In this document: positions 1 to 15,189 of the stretch, one piece after another
Layout of the letters: every line of letters starts with the position of its first letter
How positions within the stretch are numbered: the first letter of the stretch is position 1
IMG/VR virus record: IMGVR_UViG_2923618136_000001
DNA: 18,768 bases
Reading direction: 5' to 3' (one strand)
DNA from: a virus
Lineage: Duplodnaviria > Heunggongvirae > Uroviricota > Caudoviricetes
Translations under genes and position numbers: made by a program
Notes under the pieces: model-generated
The model's input: only the letters and a program-made list of their open reading frames with translations
Databases searched by the model: none
What the model was told of the DNA's origin: nothing

Positions 1-192
1 ATGAAGCAGATCGACAAGCAACTTCACGCCGAGATCGTCCGCCTGTACGGCGAGGGCAACAGCATCCGCGCCGTCGCGAAGGATGTCGAGCGCAGCTACG
101 GATACGTCTACAAGACCCTCACCGAAGCCGGGGTGGCCCTCCGCCCGCGTGGCGGCAGCAAGAAGAAGGACATCCCCGCCGAAGTGCAATGA
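1..192 (+). CDS. Small actinobacterial HTH DNA-binding protein (HTH_58 / SCO1839-Gbn-like), 63 aa
   Basis: Motif Y-x2-G-x-SIRA-x-A-x4-RSYG-x-V-x3-L-x-E-x-GV-x-LR-x-RGG matches, from memory, the small Streptomyces HTH family. It is convergent with the lysis genes and followed by a terminator. Confidence 0.8.
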   Translation: MKQIDKQLHAEIVRLYGEGNSIRAVAKDVERSYGYVYKTLTEAGVALRPRGGSKKKDIPAEVQ

Positions 193-206
193 GCAGGTGA
201 AACACA

Positions 207-251
207 AAGAACGCCCCGTCATCCCGATGTCCGGGATGACGGGGCGTTCTT
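207..251. terminator. Bidirectional intrinsic terminator
   Basis: Perfect 20-bp stem AAGAACGCCCCGTCATCCCG (207-226) / CGGGATGACGGGGCGTTCTT (232-251) with a 5-nt loop, between convergent stops at 192 and 266. The minus-strand tail is T-rich. Confidence 0.9.
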
Positions 252-265
252 CATGCGATCAGCGA

Positions 266-523
266 CTACCGCTGAGAGTCCGGCAGATCCGGGCGCGGCG
301 TGTGCCGCGCCTTCCAGCCGGCCAAGGCCGTCAGCGCGGTCGGCAGCAAGGGCAGGGTGATCATCTCCACCCAGTCAGGAAGGAACGAGATCAGCGACGC
401 ATCTGCAGCGACGGCCTGCAGGGCGGCAATACCGGCGATACCGGTCAGGTAGCTGACCAGCGTCATGGCCTTGACCTTGGCCTCGACCGGCTGCGTGTAC
501 GTGGGCTCGGGATCAGCGTGCAT
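266..523 (-). CDS. Putative holin, 85 aa
   Basis: Two hydrophobic segments with PVEAKVKA...GWKARHTPR, typical of actinophage holins, directly after the endolysin. ATG 523 is preceded by GAGGAGG; the ORF track start at GTG 553 has no RBS. Confidence 0.75.
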   Translation of the reverse strand: MHADPEPTYTQPVEAKVKAMTLVSYLTGIAGIAALQAVAADASLISFLPDWVEMITLPLLPTALTALAGWKARHTPRPDLPDSQR

Positions 524-545
524 GTGCCCCTCCTCAAGGGACAGG

Positions 546-562
546 CCCGCCACTGTGGCGGG
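546..562 (-). other. GC-rich hairpin upstream of the holin RBS
   Basis: CCCGCCA-CAG-TGGCGGG on the minus strand: 7-bp stem, 3-nt loop. Confidence 0.45.
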
Positions 563-574
563 ACGAATCAGAAG

Positions 575-596
575 ACGCCAGCGGTATTGCTAGCAT
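575..596 (-). repeat. Conserved intergenic hairpin motif, copy A
   Basis: Minus strand AT-GCTAGC-AATACC-GCTGGC-GT; same pattern at 16037-16058 and 18697-18718. Confidence 0.7.
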
Positions 597-1408
597 TAGG
601 TGAGCGCGGCCTCCCAGCATGCGGCGTCCCAGATCAGGTCGTCGGCGCCCTTCGGGATCTTCTTGGCGGCCTTGAACGCCTCGATCTTGGCGATCAGGTC
701 CGTGTCCTTCGGGTCGTACTTCGTGCTGTGCAGGTTCGCGGGCTCGTAGCCGCGAGCGAACAGCAGGCCGCGCAGGGTCTTGACGTGCCGGTGCTCGTCA
801 CCGGGCTTGAGGACGGGCAAGTTCTTCACCAGGGCCTCCGTGGTCAGAATCTTGGTCGGGATAGGCGGAACAGGCTTCGGGGTCGGAGAGGGCGGGCGAG
901 GCGCGCCCTTCTTGATCCAGGCGTACAGAGGGCCGCCGGGACAATTCGTAGCGAATCCGTCCTTGTGTCCCTTGATCTCGTTGCCTGCGTTGCCCTCGGC
1001 GCGCAGGTACTCGATCGCGTCCCTGATGCCGTGCAGCAGGAGATCGTTCGGCTCGGTGAACCCCAGCGACCCGACGAGCGCGAGCACCGCGTAATGCCCC
1101 GTGTTCAGGCCCGCGCCGTTCGCGGCCGGCAGCGCGTGCAGTCCGCGGCCGACGAACACCTGTCGGTGCGGACAACAGATCAGGCTGTAGCCGATGTCGA
1201 TGTACGGCTGCTCCCGCGCGCCCGCCATGTGCATGGTTTGGACCTGCCGGACGAGCTTGCCGCACTCCTCGTGGTCACGCTCGATCGCCGGGGGCACGTG
1301 ACCGCCCGTGTAGTGGATCTTCACGCCCTCGGTGCCGGGAATTCTGGTGTAGGACGCCGTGGGGGTCTTCGCTCCCCACGTGCGGCGACTGACGAGCTTG
1401 ATGCTCAT
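596..1408 (-). CDS. Endolysin: N-acetylmuramoyl-L-alanine amidase (Amidase_2/PGRP-like) with C-terminal PG-binding-like domain, 270 aa
   Basis: SRRTWGA, IHYTGG, DIGYS, VFVGRG and HKDGFATNCPG amidase motifs; Pro-rich linker; LPVLKPGD...VKTLRGLL binding-domain motif. RBS AAGGAGG before ATG 1408. Confidence 0.9.
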   Translation of the reverse strand: MSIKLVSRRTWGAKTPTASYTRIPGTEGVKIHYTGGHVPPAIERDHEECGKLVRQVQTMHMAGAREQPYIDIGYSLICCPHRQVFVGRGLHALPAANGAGLNTGHYAVLALVGSLGFTEPNDLLLHGIRDAIEYLRAEGNAGNEIKGHKDGFATNCPGGPLYAWIKKGAPRPPSPTPKPVPPIPTKILTTEALVKNLPVLKPGDEHRHVKTLRGLLFARGYEPANLHSTKYDPKDTDLIAKIEAFKAAKKIPKGADDLIWDAACWEAALT

Positions 1409-1447
1409 GCTGGTATCCGCCCTCCTTGCTTGATGTCCGATGTCCAC

Positions 1448-1882
1448 TCAGCCCTGGCTGTCGGCACCACTGCCTCCGGTACCGTCTGCGGTCATGGCAG
1501 TGACGCCAGCGCTACCGCTGGCATCGGTGGAGTTGTTGATGATCGAGATGGTTCCGGCGAGCTGGTGCTGATCCAGGTGAGCGGCCAGGCCGTCCTCCAC
1601 CCGGCGCACGCCGCGCTCCAGCCGGTCCACCGCATCCCTGAGCGACGTCCCGTGGTTGGGACGCAACTGCTCCTCTATCGTCGTGATCCGCTGAGGGAAG
1701 CCCGGCCGCGCCGCGACCCCGGGCCGCGCCGCCTCGCCCTGCCAGTCGTCGAGGAAGTTCTTCAAGCTGGCGAACGTCCGCCACAGCCAGGTCACGCCCC
1801 GGCTGAGCATCGCCAGCAAGCCCAGACCGCCGGCCACCATCCCCGCGATCACGAACACGTCTAGTGCCGGGTTCCCGGTCAT
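1448..1882 (-). CDS. Membrane protein of the lysis cassette (DUF2746-like), 144 aa
   Basis: N-terminal TM segment, then the LRPNHGTSLRDAVDRLE motif typical of actinophage pre-lysin genes. ATGA overlap with the upstream gene. Confidence 0.7.
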   Translation of the reverse strand: MTGNPALDVFVIAGMVAGGLGLLAMLSRGVTWLWRTFASLKNFLDDWQGEAARPGVAARPGFPQRITTIEEQLRPNHGTSLRDAVDRLERGVRRVEDGLAAHLDQHQLAGTISIINNSTDASGSAGVTAMTADGTGGSGADSQG

Positions 1883-9141: not shown

Positions 9142-9199
9142 TGTATACCGGTAGACAGATGGGGTGCCGCACTCTAATGTGTCTACCAGTAGACACATT
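9142..9199 (+). promoter_or_regulatory. Sigma70/HrdB-type promoter overlapped by two palindromic operators
   Basis: -35 TAGACA 9152-9157, 17-bp spacer, -10 TAATGT 9175-9180. Operators TGTaTAC-CG-GTAGACA (9142-9157) and perfect AATGTGTCTAC-CA-GTAGACACATT (9176-9199). RBS GGAGG 9201-9205. Confidence 0.8.
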
Positions 9200-10640: not shown

Positions 10641-12857
10641 TCACACCACCCCCAGTGCACCGGCCATTTGCAGGCCACGATTGATCGTCTGCGATGACGG
10701 TTCGGCCTGCGGGTTGATCGTGGTCAAGTTGAACACCACGCCCCCGCCTCTCCCCGGCCCGGCGCCGCCGGCCACTCCCCCGCCCGGCCCGACCGGCACG
10801 GCCAGCTCCGGGGAGAACGCTGTGCTTAGCTGCCCAGCGATGTTCCGGGCCGTGCGCAGCACCTGCCCGGCCGACCCTTGCATGCCCTGCGCCATGCCGA
10901 GCATCGTGAACTGGCCGATCTGAGCGAACACCCGGCTGGGCGAGGAGATACCGAGGGCCTGGCGCACCCAGTCCGGCATGATCTGCGAGAAGAACCCGAG
11001 GATGGAGTTCCGGAACCAGTCCCACATGGACACGATGCCGTTCCACAGGCCGCTGATCACGGCCACGCCGATGTTGCCCATCACCGAGGCGATGTCACCG
11101 ACTGCGGACACGATCTGTCCCGGCAGGTTCATGAAGAAGCCGACCAGCGTCCCGCCGATCCACTGGCCGATCCCTCGCACCAGGTCAGGGATGATGCTGT
11201 GACCGATCAGCACGTCATACAGCCACCCGAACGCGGCGGCGACCGTCTGCACCATCGCGTTCACGACCAAGACGATCATCTGCACTGACGGGCCCAGAAC
11301 GTACGACAGGCCCTGCGCGAGCAGCGTCACCAGGGTGATGACCTGCGGCAGCACTGTGACCGCGAGCTGCACCAGCGGCGGCAGCAGCGGCATGACCGCA
11401 TAGAGGATCTGCGTGAACCCTGATGCGAGCTGGACCAGCATCGGAGCGAGCGAGAGAACAAGCTGCACAGTCGGAGGCAGAAGCGACACCGCGAGCTGCA
11501 GCAGCATCGGCAGGATCGGCGTCACGGCGGGCAACAGCGACGTGAACGCCTGAGCCACCTGAACCAGCGCGGGCGTAAGCATGATCACCGCACGCATGAC
11601 CTCCGTGCCGACCAGGACCGCGGCCTGCGTCAGCAACGGCAGAATCGGCGCGATGGCCTGCACGAGCACACCGAGGACCTGAACCAGCGCCCCGCCCACG
11701 ACGGCCGCAAGCTGCCCGACGAGCGGCAACAGCGGCGACAGGGCAGGTAGCAGCGCCGTGGCGATCTGCGCAACCAGATTCGCCAGCGGGCCAAGCAGCG
11801 GGATCACGGCCAAGAGGAACTGCCCGAACGCGGTCGTGAGCTGCCAGACGACCGGCTGGAGCTGCACCAGCACCGGCACCAGAGCGGCGGTGATCGCTGA
11901 GACGACCTGCACCAGTACCGGCATCAACGCTGTCGCGAAAATCGCGACGAGCTGCACCAGCGGCGGCAGCAGCGGGGCCATGGCCGCGACGAGCTGGCCG
12001 AGGCTCACGACGAGCACGGCGACGTGCGGCGCGACCTGCGTAAGCGCTTGGATGAGCGCACCACCGAGGGCCTGCACGATCATCGCCAGGGCACCCATGA
12101 CCGGCCCCATGAGCTGCGCGCCCACCTGGACGAGCGTGGCGATCAGCGGGGCGAGGGCCTGGAGGATCGAGCCCACGCCGACGATGAACTGAGCGACCGC
12201 ACCCGAGTTCGCCGCGACCGCCTGCGCGATCACGCCGAAGAACCCGGCGAGCTGCGCACCGAAGATGCCCATCACGCCGGCGAGCTGAGACAGGACCGGC
12301 ACGGCAGCGGCAACGATGTGCTGCAGCGCGGGCAGCGCCGACTGGAGGAACTGCACCAGGCCCGTCGTGAGTTGTCCCAGCAGCGGCGCGATCTGGCCGA
12401 ACATCTGAGTCAGCGCGGGGGCGATCATCTGCGCGAAGATCGAATGCAGGTTCGCGGCGACCTGCACCAGCGGGGCCTCGAACACACTGGCCGCTCGCTT
12501 CAGCTCCATCGTGACGCTGTCGGCCATCGCGGAAAACGCCAGCTTGACGCCTTCCGCTTGCGCGGCCGCGGCGATACCGATCCCGCCGAGCACGCCGACG
12601 ACCCCGAGGAAGCTGGCTCCGACGATGACAGCGGAACTGCTTGCGGCTACGCCGAGCGCGCCGAGCGCTGTGGCCGCCGACGCCGCGGCGATCCCGACTC
12701 CTGCGCTCATCGAGGCGGCTTGGACACCGATCGACCCGAAGATGCCGCCGAACTGGCCCGCGAACCGCTGCAGGTCGTTCAGGGCCCGGCGGAGCCCGGG
12801 GGTGAGGTAGTCCCGCAGGCTGATCGTGGCGACCAGGTCGCCGACGTTGAGCGCCAC
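10641..12857 (-). CDS. Tape measure protein 2, 738 aa
   Basis: N-terminus MALNVGDLVATISLRD; long amphipathic LLPPLVQL repeats; LGISSPSRVF...G motif; RBS AGGAGGTGA. Confidence 0.85.
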   Translation of the reverse strand: MALNVGDLVATISLRDYLTPGLRRALNDLQRFAGQFGGIFGSIGVQAASMSAGVGIAAASAATALGALGVAASSSAVIVGASFLGVVGVLGGIGIAAAAQAEGVKLAFSAMADSVTMELKRAASVFEAPLVQVAANLHSIFAQMIAPALTQMFGQIAPLLGQLTTGLVQFLQSALPALQHIVAAAVPVLSQLAGVMGIFGAQLAGFFGVIAQAVAANSGAVAQFIVGVGSILQALAPLIATLVQVGAQLMGPVMGALAMIVQALGGALIQALTQVAPHVAVLVVSLGQLVAAMAPLLPPLVQLVAIFATALMPVLVQVVSAITAALVPVLVQLQPVVWQLTTAFGQFLLAVIPLLGPLANLVAQIATALLPALSPLLPLVGQLAAVVGGALVQVLGVLVQAIAPILPLLTQAAVLVGTEVMRAVIMLTPALVQVAQAFTSLLPAVTPILPMLLQLAVSLLPPTVQLVLSLAPMLVQLASGFTQILYAVMPLLPPLVQLAVTVLPQVITLVTLLAQGLSYVLGPSVQMIVLVVNAMVQTVAAAFGWLYDVLIGHSIIPDLVRGIGQWIGGTLVGFFMNLPGQIVSAVGDIASVMGNIGVAVISGLWNGIVSMWDWFRNSILGFFSQIMPDWVRQALGISSPSRVFAQIGQFTMLGMAQGMQGSAGQVLRTARNIAGQLSTAFSPELAVPVGPGGGVAGGAGPGRGGGVVFNLTTINPQAEPSSQTINRGLQMAGALGVV

Positions 12858-12859
12858 GT

Positions 12860-12905
12860 CTCACCTCCTGAAAGGTCCGCATGGGCTGGGATTTCAGGAG
12901 GTGAG
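12860..12905 (-). promoter_or_regulatory. Hairpin sequestering the TMP2 ribosome-binding site
   Basis: Perfect 14-bp inverted repeat CTCACCTCCTGAAA (12860-12873) / TTTCAGGAGGTGAG (12892-12905). On the mRNA the 3' arm is the TMP2 SD. Confidence 0.8.
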
Positions 12906-12919
12906 GCGCGAGCCGGGTG

Positions 12920-14836
12920 TCAGGAGACGAGGCCGGCCGCCGCGGCGTACTGCAAGCCCCTATTCACGGTCTTGGAGGTGGGCTCGGCCTGCGGGTAGTT
13001 GTTCGTGACGTGCACCGTCACCTGGGATGCTCGGGCTGCGGCGTTCTGCCCGCTGAACCCTCCGCCGCCCTCGATGGCCACCACGGACCCGCCGTTGCCC
13101 GTGCTGCCCTCGATGGTGTTCTTCGGCTTCGGCAGCGGAACATCGAACTTGGTCGCGGTCCCCACGATGCGGCCCAGCCCGTCGCGGGCCACCGACTGCA
13201 CCTTGTCGACCATGATCTTGGCGGCGCTCATCGCGATTTTCTCGTTGTCCTTGATGCCCTTGGCCAGGCCGAGCACGGAGAACATGCCGAACTCAGCGAA
13301 GACCGTGGACGGCGAATTGATGCCGAGCAGGCCCTTGATCCAGCCGAGGAACCCGTTGATCAGGTTGCCGACCGAGGAGGTGAATTTGTTCCAGGTGTTC
13401 TGGAATCCCTGGATGATGCCGTTGACCATGTCCGAGCCCAGGGTCTGCAGCTTCTTGAACGCCTCGGTGACGGTCTTGCCGAAGACGCCGACCGCGTTCT
13501 TGATCAAGTCGAAAGCGCCTCGGAAGTCCCCTTGGAAAAGCTTGATGACCGCCTGCACGGCGCTCAGGACCAGGGGAATCACGGCGGTCGCGAGCTGCAT
13601 CAGGGGTGGCAGGAACGGCGTGACGGCAGCGACCAGCTTCACGAAGACCCCAGCGAGCAACGTCAGAACCGGGGTCAGCGCCTTGATGATCGTCACGATC
13701 GGCGGTAGAAGCCCGACCAGGAGCTGCGACAGCGGCGGCAAGATCGGCAGCAAAGCCGTGATGACCTGCCCGAACGCGGACGCGACCTGAGCCAGCACCG
13801 GCTGCAGCGCCACCAGAACGGGCTGCAGCGCCGCCGTCAAGGACTGCGCGATCTGGACCAGCACCGGCATGAGCGACGTCGCCAGGGTGGCCGCGAGCTG
13901 CAGGAACGGCGGCAGGAGCGGGATCACGGCGGTGAGGATCGCCCCGAAAGCCGTCACGATCTGAGCGATGACCGGCCCGAGCTGGATCAGAACTGGCGCA
14001 AGCGATGTTGATAGCGCGTTACCAACCCCGGCCAGCGCAGCGAAAAGCGGCCCGGCGACCTGCCCGGCCACCTGGACCAGGGCGGCGAGCACCGGACCTA
14101 TCGACTGCAGAACCCCGCCGATCCCGGTTACCAGGGTCGCCAGAAGACCGCTGTTCTGGCTCAACGCCTGCGTGATCGGCTCCATGAACCCAGCGATTTG
14201 CCCACCGAAGGTACCGAGGCTCCCGGCGAGCTGGCTGAGCATCGGAGCGACCGCCGCCACGAGTCCGGAGACTGCCGGCAGCATCGGCTGCAGGAAGTCG
14301 CCCAGCCCGGAGGTGAAGTCACCGATCAGCGGAGCCAGATCGGTGAACATGCCCTGCAAGGCAGGCGCGATCTCGCTGGAGAACATCGTCTTCAGCGACC
14401 CGGCCGCCTGGATCAGCGGCGCCTGGAACACCGTCGCGGCGTCCGCCATGTCCGCCTGAACCGAGGTCTTGAGATCACCGAAAGCGGCCTTCACCGCTGG
14501 TGCGGCCATCGCCGCGTTGATGCCGAGCTTCGCGATCCCGAGCGCGGCGCCAGCAAAAGCGAAAGCGACAGCGCCGCCGACCGCGACTCCGGCCGCTCCC
14601 ACCCCGGCCAGCAGCGCGCCGCTCTTGGCCCCGGCCGAGGCGATGGCCTTGCCCGTTGACGCCGCCCCCGACACGACGGCCGACGACATGCGTCCGGCCG
14701 CCATCCCGGCGGCGATCAGGGCGGCGTGGATCCCCGTCGCGTTGACCTTGATTCCAGCGGTGGCCCTGCTGAACGGCCCTGTCATCTGGTCTCGGAATGA
14801 CAAGGTGGCGTACAGGTCACCAATGTTGATCGCCAT
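12920..14836 (-). CDS. Tape measure protein 1, 638 aa
   Basis: N-terminus MAINIGDLYATLSFRD; amphipathic repeats; LGINSPSTVF...G motif; RBS AGGAGG; follows the tail assembly chaperone. Confidence 0.85.
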   Translation of the reverse strand: MAINIGDLYATLSFRDQMTGPFSRATAGIKVNATGIHAALIAAGMAAGRMSSAVVSGAASTGKAIASAGAKSGALLAGVGAAGVAVGGAVAFAFAGAALGIAKLGINAAMAAPAVKAAFGDLKTSVQADMADAATVFQAPLIQAAGSLKTMFSSEIAPALQGMFTDLAPLIGDFTSGLGDFLQPMLPAVSGLVAAVAPMLSQLAGSLGTFGGQIAGFMEPITQALSQNSGLLATLVTGIGGVLQSIGPVLAALVQVAGQVAGPLFAALAGVGNALSTSLAPVLIQLGPVIAQIVTAFGAILTAVIPLLPPFLQLAATLATSLMPVLVQIAQSLTAALQPVLVALQPVLAQVASAFGQVITALLPILPPLSQLLVGLLPPIVTIIKALTPVLTLLAGVFVKLVAAVTPFLPPLMQLATAVIPLVLSAVQAVIKLFQGDFRGAFDLIKNAVGVFGKTVTEAFKKLQTLGSDMVNGIIQGFQNTWNKFTSSVGNLINGFLGWIKGLLGINSPSTVFAEFGMFSVLGLAKGIKDNEKIAMSAAKIMVDKVQSVARDGLGRIVGTATKFDVPLPKPKNTIEGSTGNGGSVVAIEGGGGFSGQNAAARASQVTVHVTNNYPQAEPTSKTVNRGLQYAAAAGLVS

Positions 14837-14862
14837 GCCCGCCTCCTGGTCGTCAGTGCTGG

Positions 14863-15189
14863 TCAGTCGGAGGAGGGGATGCCGCGTCTGCGGCTGGTTG
14901 CCTTACTGGGAGGCGGGGCGAGCTGACGAGACAGCCGGGTGTCTTCCGCCAGCAGCCCGAGGATCCGAACCCGTAGCCACCGCCAGGACCGACCCGTCAG
15001 CACGCCGGGCGCGTCGAGGTCGATCCCGTAGTGGCTGTGCAGGTCCGCCTCGATCAGGTCCCAGTGGGTCAGGACGCCTTCCCACGTGAGGCCTTTTGGC
15101 GCGGGTTCGTACCACTCGTAGAGCCCCGTGACTTCGTCGTACTCGCCGCCGCCGATGAGGTCGCCGGGTCCGGGGCCTGTGCTTCCGGG
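14863..15189 (-). CDS. Tail assembly chaperone T-segment, probably expressed by -1 frameshift from the upstream ORF
   Basis: The -1 frame encodes HWDLIEADLH..YGID...RSWRWLRVRILGLL, typical of actinophage chaperone T segments. It has no RBS-supported start of its own. Candidate slip site CCCGGAA at 15189-15183. Confidence 0.65.
   Translation of the reverse strand, partial: PGSTGPGPGDLIGGGEYDEVTGLYEWYEPAPKGLTWEGVLTHWDLIEADLHSHYGIDLDAPGVLTGRSWRWLRVRILGLLAEDTRLSRQLAPPPSKATSRRRGIPSSD

What the first reader, a model, noticed from the sequence alone, without database searches (positions are those of the whole stretch)
12851..12919. Perfect anti-Shine-Dalgarno hairpin locks the TMP2 start: possible switch setting the TMP1:TMP2 ratio
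Seen: on the mRNA, 14 nt after the TMP1 stop, CUCACCUCCUGAAA pairs perfectly with UUUCAGGAGGUGAG, the TMP2 SD, ending 2 nt before the GUG. The 5' arm contains UCACCUCCU, a mimic of the 16S rRNA 3' end. The 18-nt loop can pair further (UCC/GGA, GC/GC). GCGC (12906-12909) can pair with 12851-12854 and bulge out the start codon. Established: SD-occluding stems control initiation and can be opened by an upstream terminating ribosome, a protein, an RNA or temperature. Inference: TMP2 is off or low by default and is released conditionally or by coupling to TMP1 translation, which would be the control point of the two-tail system.
Basis: partly seen in the sequence, partly recalled or inferred. Interest (0 to 1): 0.78.

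Follow-up and report, generated by a model that had tools for sequence, protein, structure and literature searches.

The report
Hairpin locking second tape-measure gene's start
In a Nonomuraea-type prophage with two tail tape-measure genes, a perfect RNA hairpin buries the ribosome-binding site of the second gene; it is a one-lineage, exaggerated version of an ordinary translational-coupling arrangement, not a conserved new switch.

Summary
On the minus-strand mRNA, a perfect 14-bp stem (5' arm 12905-12892, 18-nt loop, 3' arm 12873-12860) holds the TMP2 Shine-Dalgarno (SD) sequence. Two further pairs reach the first G of the GUG start.

The stem is very strong. It folds at -27 to -29 kcal/mol. 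Of 1094 GGAGG-led genes in this genome, TMP2 ranks third for the cost of opening its start region and lowest for SD accessibility.

The perfect hairpin is not conserved. Nine other two-TMP loci all lack a 26-nt segment (12917-12892) that carries the 5' arm. That segment contains an inverted copy of the SD region, so it is a derived insertion.

In the Nonomuraea-type relatives a weaker anti-SD box sits on or just after the TMP1 stop codon. A modelled terminating ribosome frees their SD, which is classic "RNA-unfolding" coupling. In this window the same model leaves the SD locked, and the stem is predicted to hold even at 85 C.

My best reading is that TMP2 initiation is blocked, or very low, whether or not TMP1 is translated. 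Whether that is adaptive is unknown.

Covariation is not significant, no RNA data exist, and nothing was tested at the bench. This is a new member of a known kind, of moderate interest.

The parts
12920..14836 (-). TMP1, 638-aa tape-measure paralog; stop UGA at 12922-12920
   Evidence: PHROG tape-measure families, E down to 7e-29. It aligns end to end with TMP2 at 33% identity, E 5e-88.
12920..12931 (-). Ancestral-type, stop-proximal anti-SD arm CUCGUCUCCUGA (last three sense codons plus UGA). It can pair with UCAGGAGGUGAG: 12 bp, two of them G-U.
   Evidence: Read from the sequence. The homologous arm forms the SD-sequestering stem in G008: 14 bp with one G-U.
12892..12917 (-). 26-nt segment found only in this lineage. 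Its last 17 nt are an inverted copy of the SD region. The exact boundaries are ambiguous by a few nt.
   Evidence: Absent from all nine other two-TMP junctions in alignment A2. Its reverse complement ends in GAGGCG, as in G008 and M3C6, while the window's own 3' arm now reads GAGACG.
12892..12905 (-). 5' arm CUCACCUCCUGAAA. It contains UCACCUCCU, identical to the 16S rRNA 3' tail. With CGC (to 12908) the stem extends by two more pairs across one mismatch.
12874..12891 (-). 18-nt loop. Inner pairs UCC/GGA and CA/UG leave a 5-nt apical loop. It contains an out-of-frame AUG (12882) with no SD.
   Evidence: ORF list.
12860..12873 (-). 3' arm UUUCAGGAGGUGAG. It includes the 9-nt SD AGGAGGUGA at 12869-12861.
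   Evidence: The SD:anti-SD duplex is -16.2 kcal/mol, within the strongest 5% of 1094 genes.
12855..12857 (-). GUG start codon of TMP2
   Evidence: The N-terminus (V/M)ALNVGDL is shared with TMP1 and with all orthologs. There is an in-frame UGA two codons upstream.
10641..12857 (-). TMP2, 738-aa tape-measure paralog
   Evidence: PHROG tape-measure families, E down to 3e-37. Orthologs at 59-74% identity in G008 and M3C6.

Best explanation
The hairpin is a cis-acting lock on the TMP2 ribosome-binding site. It arose in this prophage lineage by a 26-nt insertion that includes an inverted copy of the SD region.

The ancestral arrangement is kept in the eight Nonomuraea-type relatives examined. There, a pyrimidine-rich anti-SD box lies on or immediately after the TMP1 stop codon and pairs moderately with the very strong TMP2 SD. 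A ribosome finishing TMP1 covers that box and frees the SD. This is the 'RNA-unfolding' form of translational coupling.

In this window the new arm forms a perfect stem of 14 (plus 2) bp, -27 to -29 kcal/mol, entirely downstream of the terminating ribosome's reach. It out-competes both the old arm and the 16S anti-SD (-16 kcal/mol). Initiation at TMP2 is therefore predicted to be blocked or reduced by orders of magnitude, whether or not TMP1 is translated.

Shown here: the sequence, the fold energetics, the genome-wide rank, the uniqueness of the insertion, and the in-silico ribosome effect.

Inferred: that coupling operates in the relatives, that TMP2 is silent or very low here, and whether this is adaptive or an accident in a prophage.
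For: - Genome rank. The cost of opening the start region is 33.2 kcal/mol, rank 3 of 1094 GGAGG-led genes (median 15.3, 99th percentile 30.2). P(unpaired SD) is 8e-5, the lowest of all.
- Operon rank. TMP2 is the only outlier among about 20 late-operon starts: 33.3 against 7.6-23.9.
- Hairpin energy. The hairpin alone is -27.3 to -29.2 kcal/mol, against -16.2 for SD:anti-SD.
- Modelled terminating ribosome. P(unpaired SD) rises from 0.0001-0.05 to 0.23-0.73 in seven of the eight Nonomuraea-type relatives (G008, M3C6, UViG, G519, G475, G463, G460). It stays at 0.0001 in the window.
- The 26-nt segment is unique among 10 junctions. The window is sister to G008 for TMP1, with 100/100 support.
- Literature. 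In f1 genes VII/IX, coupling is lost once the stop lies upstream of the hairpin (PMC12548453). In the Tian-Salis model, only structures that overlap the upstream coding sequence are opened by its ribosomes (PMC4538824).
Against: - All effects on translation are thermodynamic predictions. No RNA or protein data exist.
- Covariation across the 10 junctions is not significant: 78% of cells are paired against 50-61% in the slid controls, with one compensatory double change in one register and none in the other, no more than shuffles give. Both arms are constrained for other reasons (coding sequence, SD).
- The relatives fall into only two or three independent lineages, and their SD accessibility sits only at about the 0-16th percentile. 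G531 (0.34) and G243 (0.56) are not sequestered at the SD.
- TMP2 remains an intact ORF with pairwise dN/dS of 0.36-0.49. With proper outgroups it shows no rate acceleration, so there is no sign of long-term silencing.
- A fully untranslated 2.2-kb TMP2 might cause Rho polarity on the essential downstream tail genes. That argues some opening must occur if the phage is viable.
Confidence: 0.55

Rival explanations
1. One reading: the hairpin is a tuned, functional switch. It is opened by TMP1-terminating or scanning ribosomes, or by a protein, RNA or RNase. It sets a defined TMP1:TMP2 ratio in a phage that builds two kinds of tail.
For: - The old stop-overlapping arm is still present, at 12931-12920.
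- The base of the extended stem begins only 11 nt after the stop, close to the ribosome's leading edge.
- UGA-C is a weak stop context (my own knowledge). Read-through in the TMP1 frame would run through the whole hairpin.
- TMP2 is intact and under purifying selection.
- The two-TMP layout is conserved in 10 loci.
Against: - Modelled ribosome edges of 6, 9 and 12 nt past the stop all leave the SD locked.
- The perfect hairpin is unique to one lineage.
- No complementary trans RNA was found in the genome.
- The second hub/fibre gene is not locked.
Confidence: 0.2
2. The stem-loop acts mainly at the RNA level rather than on initiation. It would be an RNase III processing site, a 3'-end stabiliser of a TMP1-ending transcript, or a factor-dependent or U-tract-less terminator or attenuator between the two genes.
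For: - With its inner pairs the helix is about 19-21 bp, near the size of RNase III substrates (my own knowledge of T7 and lambda sites).
- There are 670 perfect hairpins of at least 14 bp in this genome against about 10 expected, so such stems are usually functional.
Against: - No U-tract follows the stem on either strand, and the terminator scan finds nothing at the hairpin.
- The nominal loop is 18 nt.
- No Rfam family matches.
- Termination here would cut off all downstream tail and lysis genes.
- The arm is an inverted copy of the SD itself, which points to SD occlusion as the primary effect.
Confidence: 0.12
3. The hairpin is a neutral mutational scar. A template-switch or inverted duplication arose in a prophage that is rarely or never induced, and it has no selected role.
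For: - It is unique to one lineage.
- Its structure is what a snap-back or template-switch error would produce.
- At least one later substitution (GAGGCG to GAGACG) lies just outside the core.
Against: - It would still have the predicted physical effect on TMP2 initiation, so this rival concerns origin and selection rather than mechanism.
- The 14-bp core has stayed perfect while the neighbouring spacer differs from G008 at about half its positions.
Confidence: 0.13

Closest known systems
RNA-unfolding translational coupling (phage f1 genes VII-IX, MS2 coat-lysis/replicase, E. coli rpmI-rplT and atpH-atpA; reviewed in PMC12548453)
   Same: The downstream gene's SD and start are buried in a stem whose partner lies at the end of the upstream gene. 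In the relatives, upstream translation is predicted to expose the site.
   Different: In this window the dominant 5' arm lies wholly in the spacer, beyond the stop codon and the ribosome footprint. It corresponds to the f1 construct in which coupling was lost.
Cis SD-sequestering repressor hairpins and RNA thermometers (ROSE, fourU)
   Same: An anti-SD strand pairs with the SD in a local hairpin.
   Different: Thermometers are weak and mismatched so that they melt at 30-42 C. This stem is perfect and is predicted to be stable at 85 C. No ligand- or protein-binding features are evident.
Intrinsic (Rho-independent) terminators
   Same: A stable stem-loop in an intergenic spacer.
   Different: There is no U-tract, the loop is long, and the stem lies mid-operon in front of essential genes.
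RNase III processing hairpins in phage polycistronic mRNAs (T7 R sites, lambda N leader)
   Same: An irregular helix of about 20 bp between late genes that could be cut to change translation or stability.
   Different: No sequence or structure signature could be tested. This rests on resemblance only.

Membership tests
RNA-unfolding translational coupling element | [quoted passage not shown] | tested here: met
   P(unpaired SD) 8e-5 and opening cost 33.2 kcal/mol, the 99.7th percentile.
RNA-unfolding translational coupling element | The pairing partner lies inside the upstream ORF or the terminating ribosome's footprint | tested here: not met
   The dominant arm is at 12905-12892, 14 nt past the stop (11 nt for the extended stem). 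The modelled ribosome does not free the SD. The feature is met by the weaker alternative arm at 12931-12920 and in the eight Nonomuraea-type relatives.
RNA-unfolding translational coupling element | Downstream translation depends on upstream translation | not testable with these tools
   This needs reporter fusions or ribosome profiling.
Cis SD-sequestering repressor hairpin | The intramolecular stem is more stable than the SD:anti-SD duplex | tested here: met
   -27.3 to -29.2 against -16.2 kcal/mol.
Cis SD-sequestering repressor hairpin | Conserved among homologous loci, with covariation | tested here: not met
   The perfect stem is unique to this lineage. The weaker pairing in relatives shows no significant covariation.
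RNA thermometer | Melts within the physiological temperature range | tested here: not met
   Predicted dG is -23.6 at 45 C, -14.6 at 65 C and -6.2 at 85 C.
Intrinsic terminator | A G+C-rich stem with a short loop, followed by a U-tract | tested here: not met
   No terminator-like site at the hairpin on either strand. The flanks are ACGUGGCG and GCGCGAGC.
Described RNA family (Rfam 15) | A match at the gathering score | tested here: not met
   No hits at gathering threshold in the window. The only local hit is a chance one, E 0.45.

The most novel reading that the evidence does not exclude
The lock is a true developmental switch. A phage or host factor, RNase III cleavage, or low-level read-through of the weak UGA-C stop opens it only under some conditions. 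The prophage would then make a minority of virions with the 100-residue-longer TMP2, giving a programmed tail-length (and perhaps host-range) dimorphism.
Probability: 0.1. Interest if true: 0.8.

Novelty: new member of a known kind. Interest (0 to 1): 0.4.

Why it matters
Tandem full-length tape-measure paralogs are unusual, and how their relative output is set is unknown. The junction shows a plausible answer for the family: coupling through an anti-SD box at the TMP1 stop.

It also offers a natural 'experiment'. One lineage has converted that coupling element into a ribosome-independent lock by inverting a copy of its own SD. The wild-type junction, the 26-nt deletion and the G008 junction therefore form a ready-made allelic series for testing the RNA-unfolding model of coupling in a high-GC actinomycete. 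The same series would show whether TMP2 is needed at all.

The mechanism itself, SD occlusion, is textbook, so the general significance is moderate.

Tried and rejected
**Searches for more relatives**
- Metagenome pattern scans gave 0 hits for the SD/start pattern. The TMP1 C-terminus pattern gave 33 hits, all unrelated proteins.
- Viral-contig protein scans with TMP1 and TMP2 found nothing.
- The phage-collection blastn gave only short chance matches.
- The search for homologous proteins gave only relatives at or below 43% identity. The two whose contigs were read (P0012, P0010) are single-TMP loci. The N-terminal search gave nothing.
- One look-up and the exact cluster look-up found no record.

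**Expression data**
- Sequencing runs: no RNA holder is listed. There are only four DNA runs, all from the probable source sample.

**Relaxed constraint on TMP2**
- Tajima's test with M3C6 as outgroup looked significant: 86 against 51 unique changes, chi-square 8.9.
- The TMP2 tree does not place M3C6 outside the pair.
- With G243 TMP2 or the TMP1 paralogs as outgroups there is no acceleration. I rejected this as evidence.

**Alternative readings considered and rejected**
- Split gene or read-through/frameshift fusion of TMP1 and TMP2. The frames differ here (62-nt spacer), an in-frame UGA lies two codons before the GUG, and the in-frame spacers of G008 and M3C6 also contain UGA.
- SECIS-like recoding of the TMP1 UGA. 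The hairpin is a lineage-specific insertion, and the read-through extension has no homology in the frames I read.
- Repeated element, recombinase site or operator. The arm is unique in the genome and the 18-bp spacer is atypical.
- Trans-acting complementary RNA. Only chance-level matches were found.
- The 555-aa ORF starting at the loop AUG (12882). It is out of frame, has no SD, and overlaps the homology-supported TMP2 frame.
- The literature search for 'two tape measure' returned only papers on the two chaperone products.

**Unpublished genome**
- No claim here rests on the unpublished genome G048.

Full report
**What is there**

All genes of interest are on the minus strand. ORF 12920-14836 (638 aa, TMP1) and ORF 10641-12857 (738 aa, TMP2) both hit PHROG tape-measure families, with E down to 7e-29 and 3e-37. 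They align end to end at 33% identity, E 5e-88. They share the N-terminus MA(I/L)N(I/V)GDL and the C-terminal NRGLQ...G motif. They are therefore tandem full-length paralogs, not a split gene.

Between them the mRNA reads, in order:
- the TMP1 stop UGA (12922-12920);
- a 14-nt spacer;
- CUCACCUCCUGAAA (12905-12892);
- an 18-nt loop;
- UUUCAGGAGGUGAG (12873-12860);
- AC, then the GUG start (12857-12855).

The stem is a perfect 14 bp. It extends by two more pairs across one C/A mismatch to include the G of the GUG.

**Is it more than chance?**

- At 69% G+C, about 10 perfect hairpins of at least 14 bp with 3-40-nt loops are expected in the 10.6-Mb genome, and about 0.02 in this window. The genome has 670, so such stems are generally not accidents.
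- The arm sequence occurs only here. No significant partial copy or complement exists elsewhere.
- The 116-nt context folds at -57.2 kcal/mol, z = -3.8.
- The hairpin alone is -27.3 kcal/mol, or -29.2 with the extension.
- Independent contigs from four runs of the same sample reproduce the region exactly.

**How extreme is the occlusion?**

I called 1094 chromosomal genes that have high GC3 and a GGAGG 5-10 nt before the start. For each I computed P(unpaired SD) and the free energy needed to open the initiation region. TMP2 has the lowest SD accessibility (8e-5). Its opening cost is 33.2 kcal/mol, the third highest; the median is 15.3 and the 99th percentile 30.2.

Among about 20 starts of the late operon it is the only outlier. 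The second hub/fibre paralog is not locked.

The SD itself (AGGAGGUGA) matches nine nt of the genome's 16S tail, GGAUCACCUCCUUUCU. That duplex is -16.2 kcal/mol, within the strongest 5%. TMP2 therefore has one of the best SDs in the genome and one of the most buried.

**Comparative evidence**

The genome is a 10.6-Mb actinomycete. The nearest named relative of the locus is Nonomuraea sp. M3C6.

I collected nine further two-TMP junctions:
- G008;
- M3C6 (= G451);
- an IMG/VR provirus;
- G519, G475, G463, G460 and G531;
- G243, from another genus.

Single-TMP relatives also exist: G449, N. basaltis and others.

The alignment of the 10 junctions shows that a 26-nt segment (12917-12892), which carries the 5' arm, is present only in the window. 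For TMP1 the window is sister to G008 with 100/100 support. Under any plausible topology, an insertion in this lineage is the most parsimonious history.

The last 17 nt of the segment are the reverse complement of UUUCAGGAGGUGAGGCG. That is the SD region with the GAGGCG spelling still found in G008 and M3C6, whereas the window's own 3' arm now reads GAGACG. The arm therefore looks like an inverted duplication of the SD region, followed by one substitution. This last point is my inference.

**What the relatives do**

In G008 the last codons of TMP1 plus the UGA (GCCUUACCUCCUGA) form a 14-bp stem, with one G-U pair, against UCAGGAGGUGAGGC. In the M3C6-type loci, a box such as CCUCCCC, CCUCUCUCCC or CCUCACC directly after the UGA pairs with the SD region; in some folds the preceding CUCUCCUG does so instead.

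P(unpaired SD) is 0.0001-0.05 in seven of the eight Nonomuraea-type relatives, roughly the 0-16th percentile of the control genes. G531 (0.34) and G243 (0.56) are exceptions. In G243 the start codon lies in a different hairpin.

I modelled a ribosome with the TMP1 stop codon in its A site, forcing 15 nt upstream and 6-12 nt downstream of the stop to be single-stranded. In those seven relatives the SD opens to 0.23-0.73, and the opening cost falls to about 14-17 kcal/mol, close to the genome median. In the window nothing changes: 0.0001 and 30-31 kcal/mol.

This matches the published picture:
- In the RNA-unfolding model, coupling works when the inhibitory hairpin is at least partly within the upstream ORF. 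In f1 genes VII/IX it was lost when the stop was moved upstream of the hairpin (PMC12548453).
- The Tian-Salis model counts only structures overlapping the upstream coding sequence as ribosome-openable (PMC4538824).

**Limits**

- Covariation is not significant. In both tested registers, 77-78% of cells are paired against 35-66% in the slid controls. There is one compensatory double change in one register and none in the other, no more than shuffles give.
- Both arms are constrained anyway, one by coding sequence and the other by its role as the SD. The relatives represent only two or three independent lineages. The 'conserved coupling design' is therefore an inference from folding, not a demonstrated selected structure.
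- No RNA data are available.
- TMP2 is intact, with pairwise dN/dS of 0.36-0.49. An apparent acceleration on the window branch disappears when valid outgroups are used. There is thus no sign of long-standing silencing.
- Complete lack of TMP2 translation might also provoke Rho polarity on the downstream tail and lysis genes. This is my inference. Some leak or opening is likely if the phage is viable.

**Alternatives**

- There is no U-tract and no terminator-like call at the site, and no Rfam family.
- The stem is predicted to be stable at 85 C, so it is not a thermometer.
- RNase III processing cannot be tested here and remains a minor rival.
- Read-through or frameshift fusion is excluded by the frames and by in-frame stops.

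**Verdict**

The hairpin is real and exceptional in strength. Mechanistically it belongs to the well-known class of SD-sequestering or coupling structures.

Its perfect form is a derived, single-lineage feature that most likely blocks TMP2 initiation independently of TMP1 translation. It is unlikely to be a conserved switch that sets a TMP1:TMP2 ratio.

I rate the interest as moderate. The value lies mainly in a natural allelic series for testing coupling, and in the open question of what two tape-measure proteins are for.

Noticed in passing
window 14841-14915 (minus strand): The TMP1 SD (GGAGGCGGG) is also predicted to be sequestered, by a long-range perfect complement (CCCGCCUCC) about 60 nt upstream inside the chaperone reading frame. 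P(unpaired SD) is 0.0035 here and 0.0003 in G008.
   Followed up: partly
window 207-251: A perfect 20-bp hairpin with a 5-nt loop lies just after the last minus-strand late gene (266-523). It is probably the terminator at the end of the operon.
   Followed up: no
window 9142-9199: An AT-rich gap between Dit and the first hub gene carries several inverted repeats, including an 11+11-bp perfect palindrome. It looks like an operator/promoter region.
   Followed up: no
L081 (G553), about 260 nt upstream of the TMP2-like start at position 1498 (minus orientation): A TMP2 ortholog (615-aa open frame) whose upstream TMP1 has been replaced by low-GC unrelated DNA. Only about 35 nt of the junction are retained. 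It is probably a truncated prophage remnant.
   Followed up: partly
window 10641-14836, compared with L021, L068, L070: The single TMP of G449 falls in the TMP1 clade. M3C6 is much closer to the window in TMP2 than in TMP1: 82 against 137 M3C6-unique residues, and dN 0.22 against 0.34. This hints at mosaic recombination near the junction, or at unequal constraint.
   Followed up: partly
window 83-1864 (+) versus 596-1408 and 266-523 (-): The long plus-strand ORF is probably a shadow. The minus-strand ORFs in the same stretch have high GC3 and SD sequences, and they continue the late operon.
   Followed up: no
genome C1, about 2.53-2.78 Mb: Seven of the 41 perfect 14-bp hairpins that contain GGAGG lie within 250 kb around the prophage, where about one would be expected from their genome-wide density. 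I did not examine them further.
   Followed up: no
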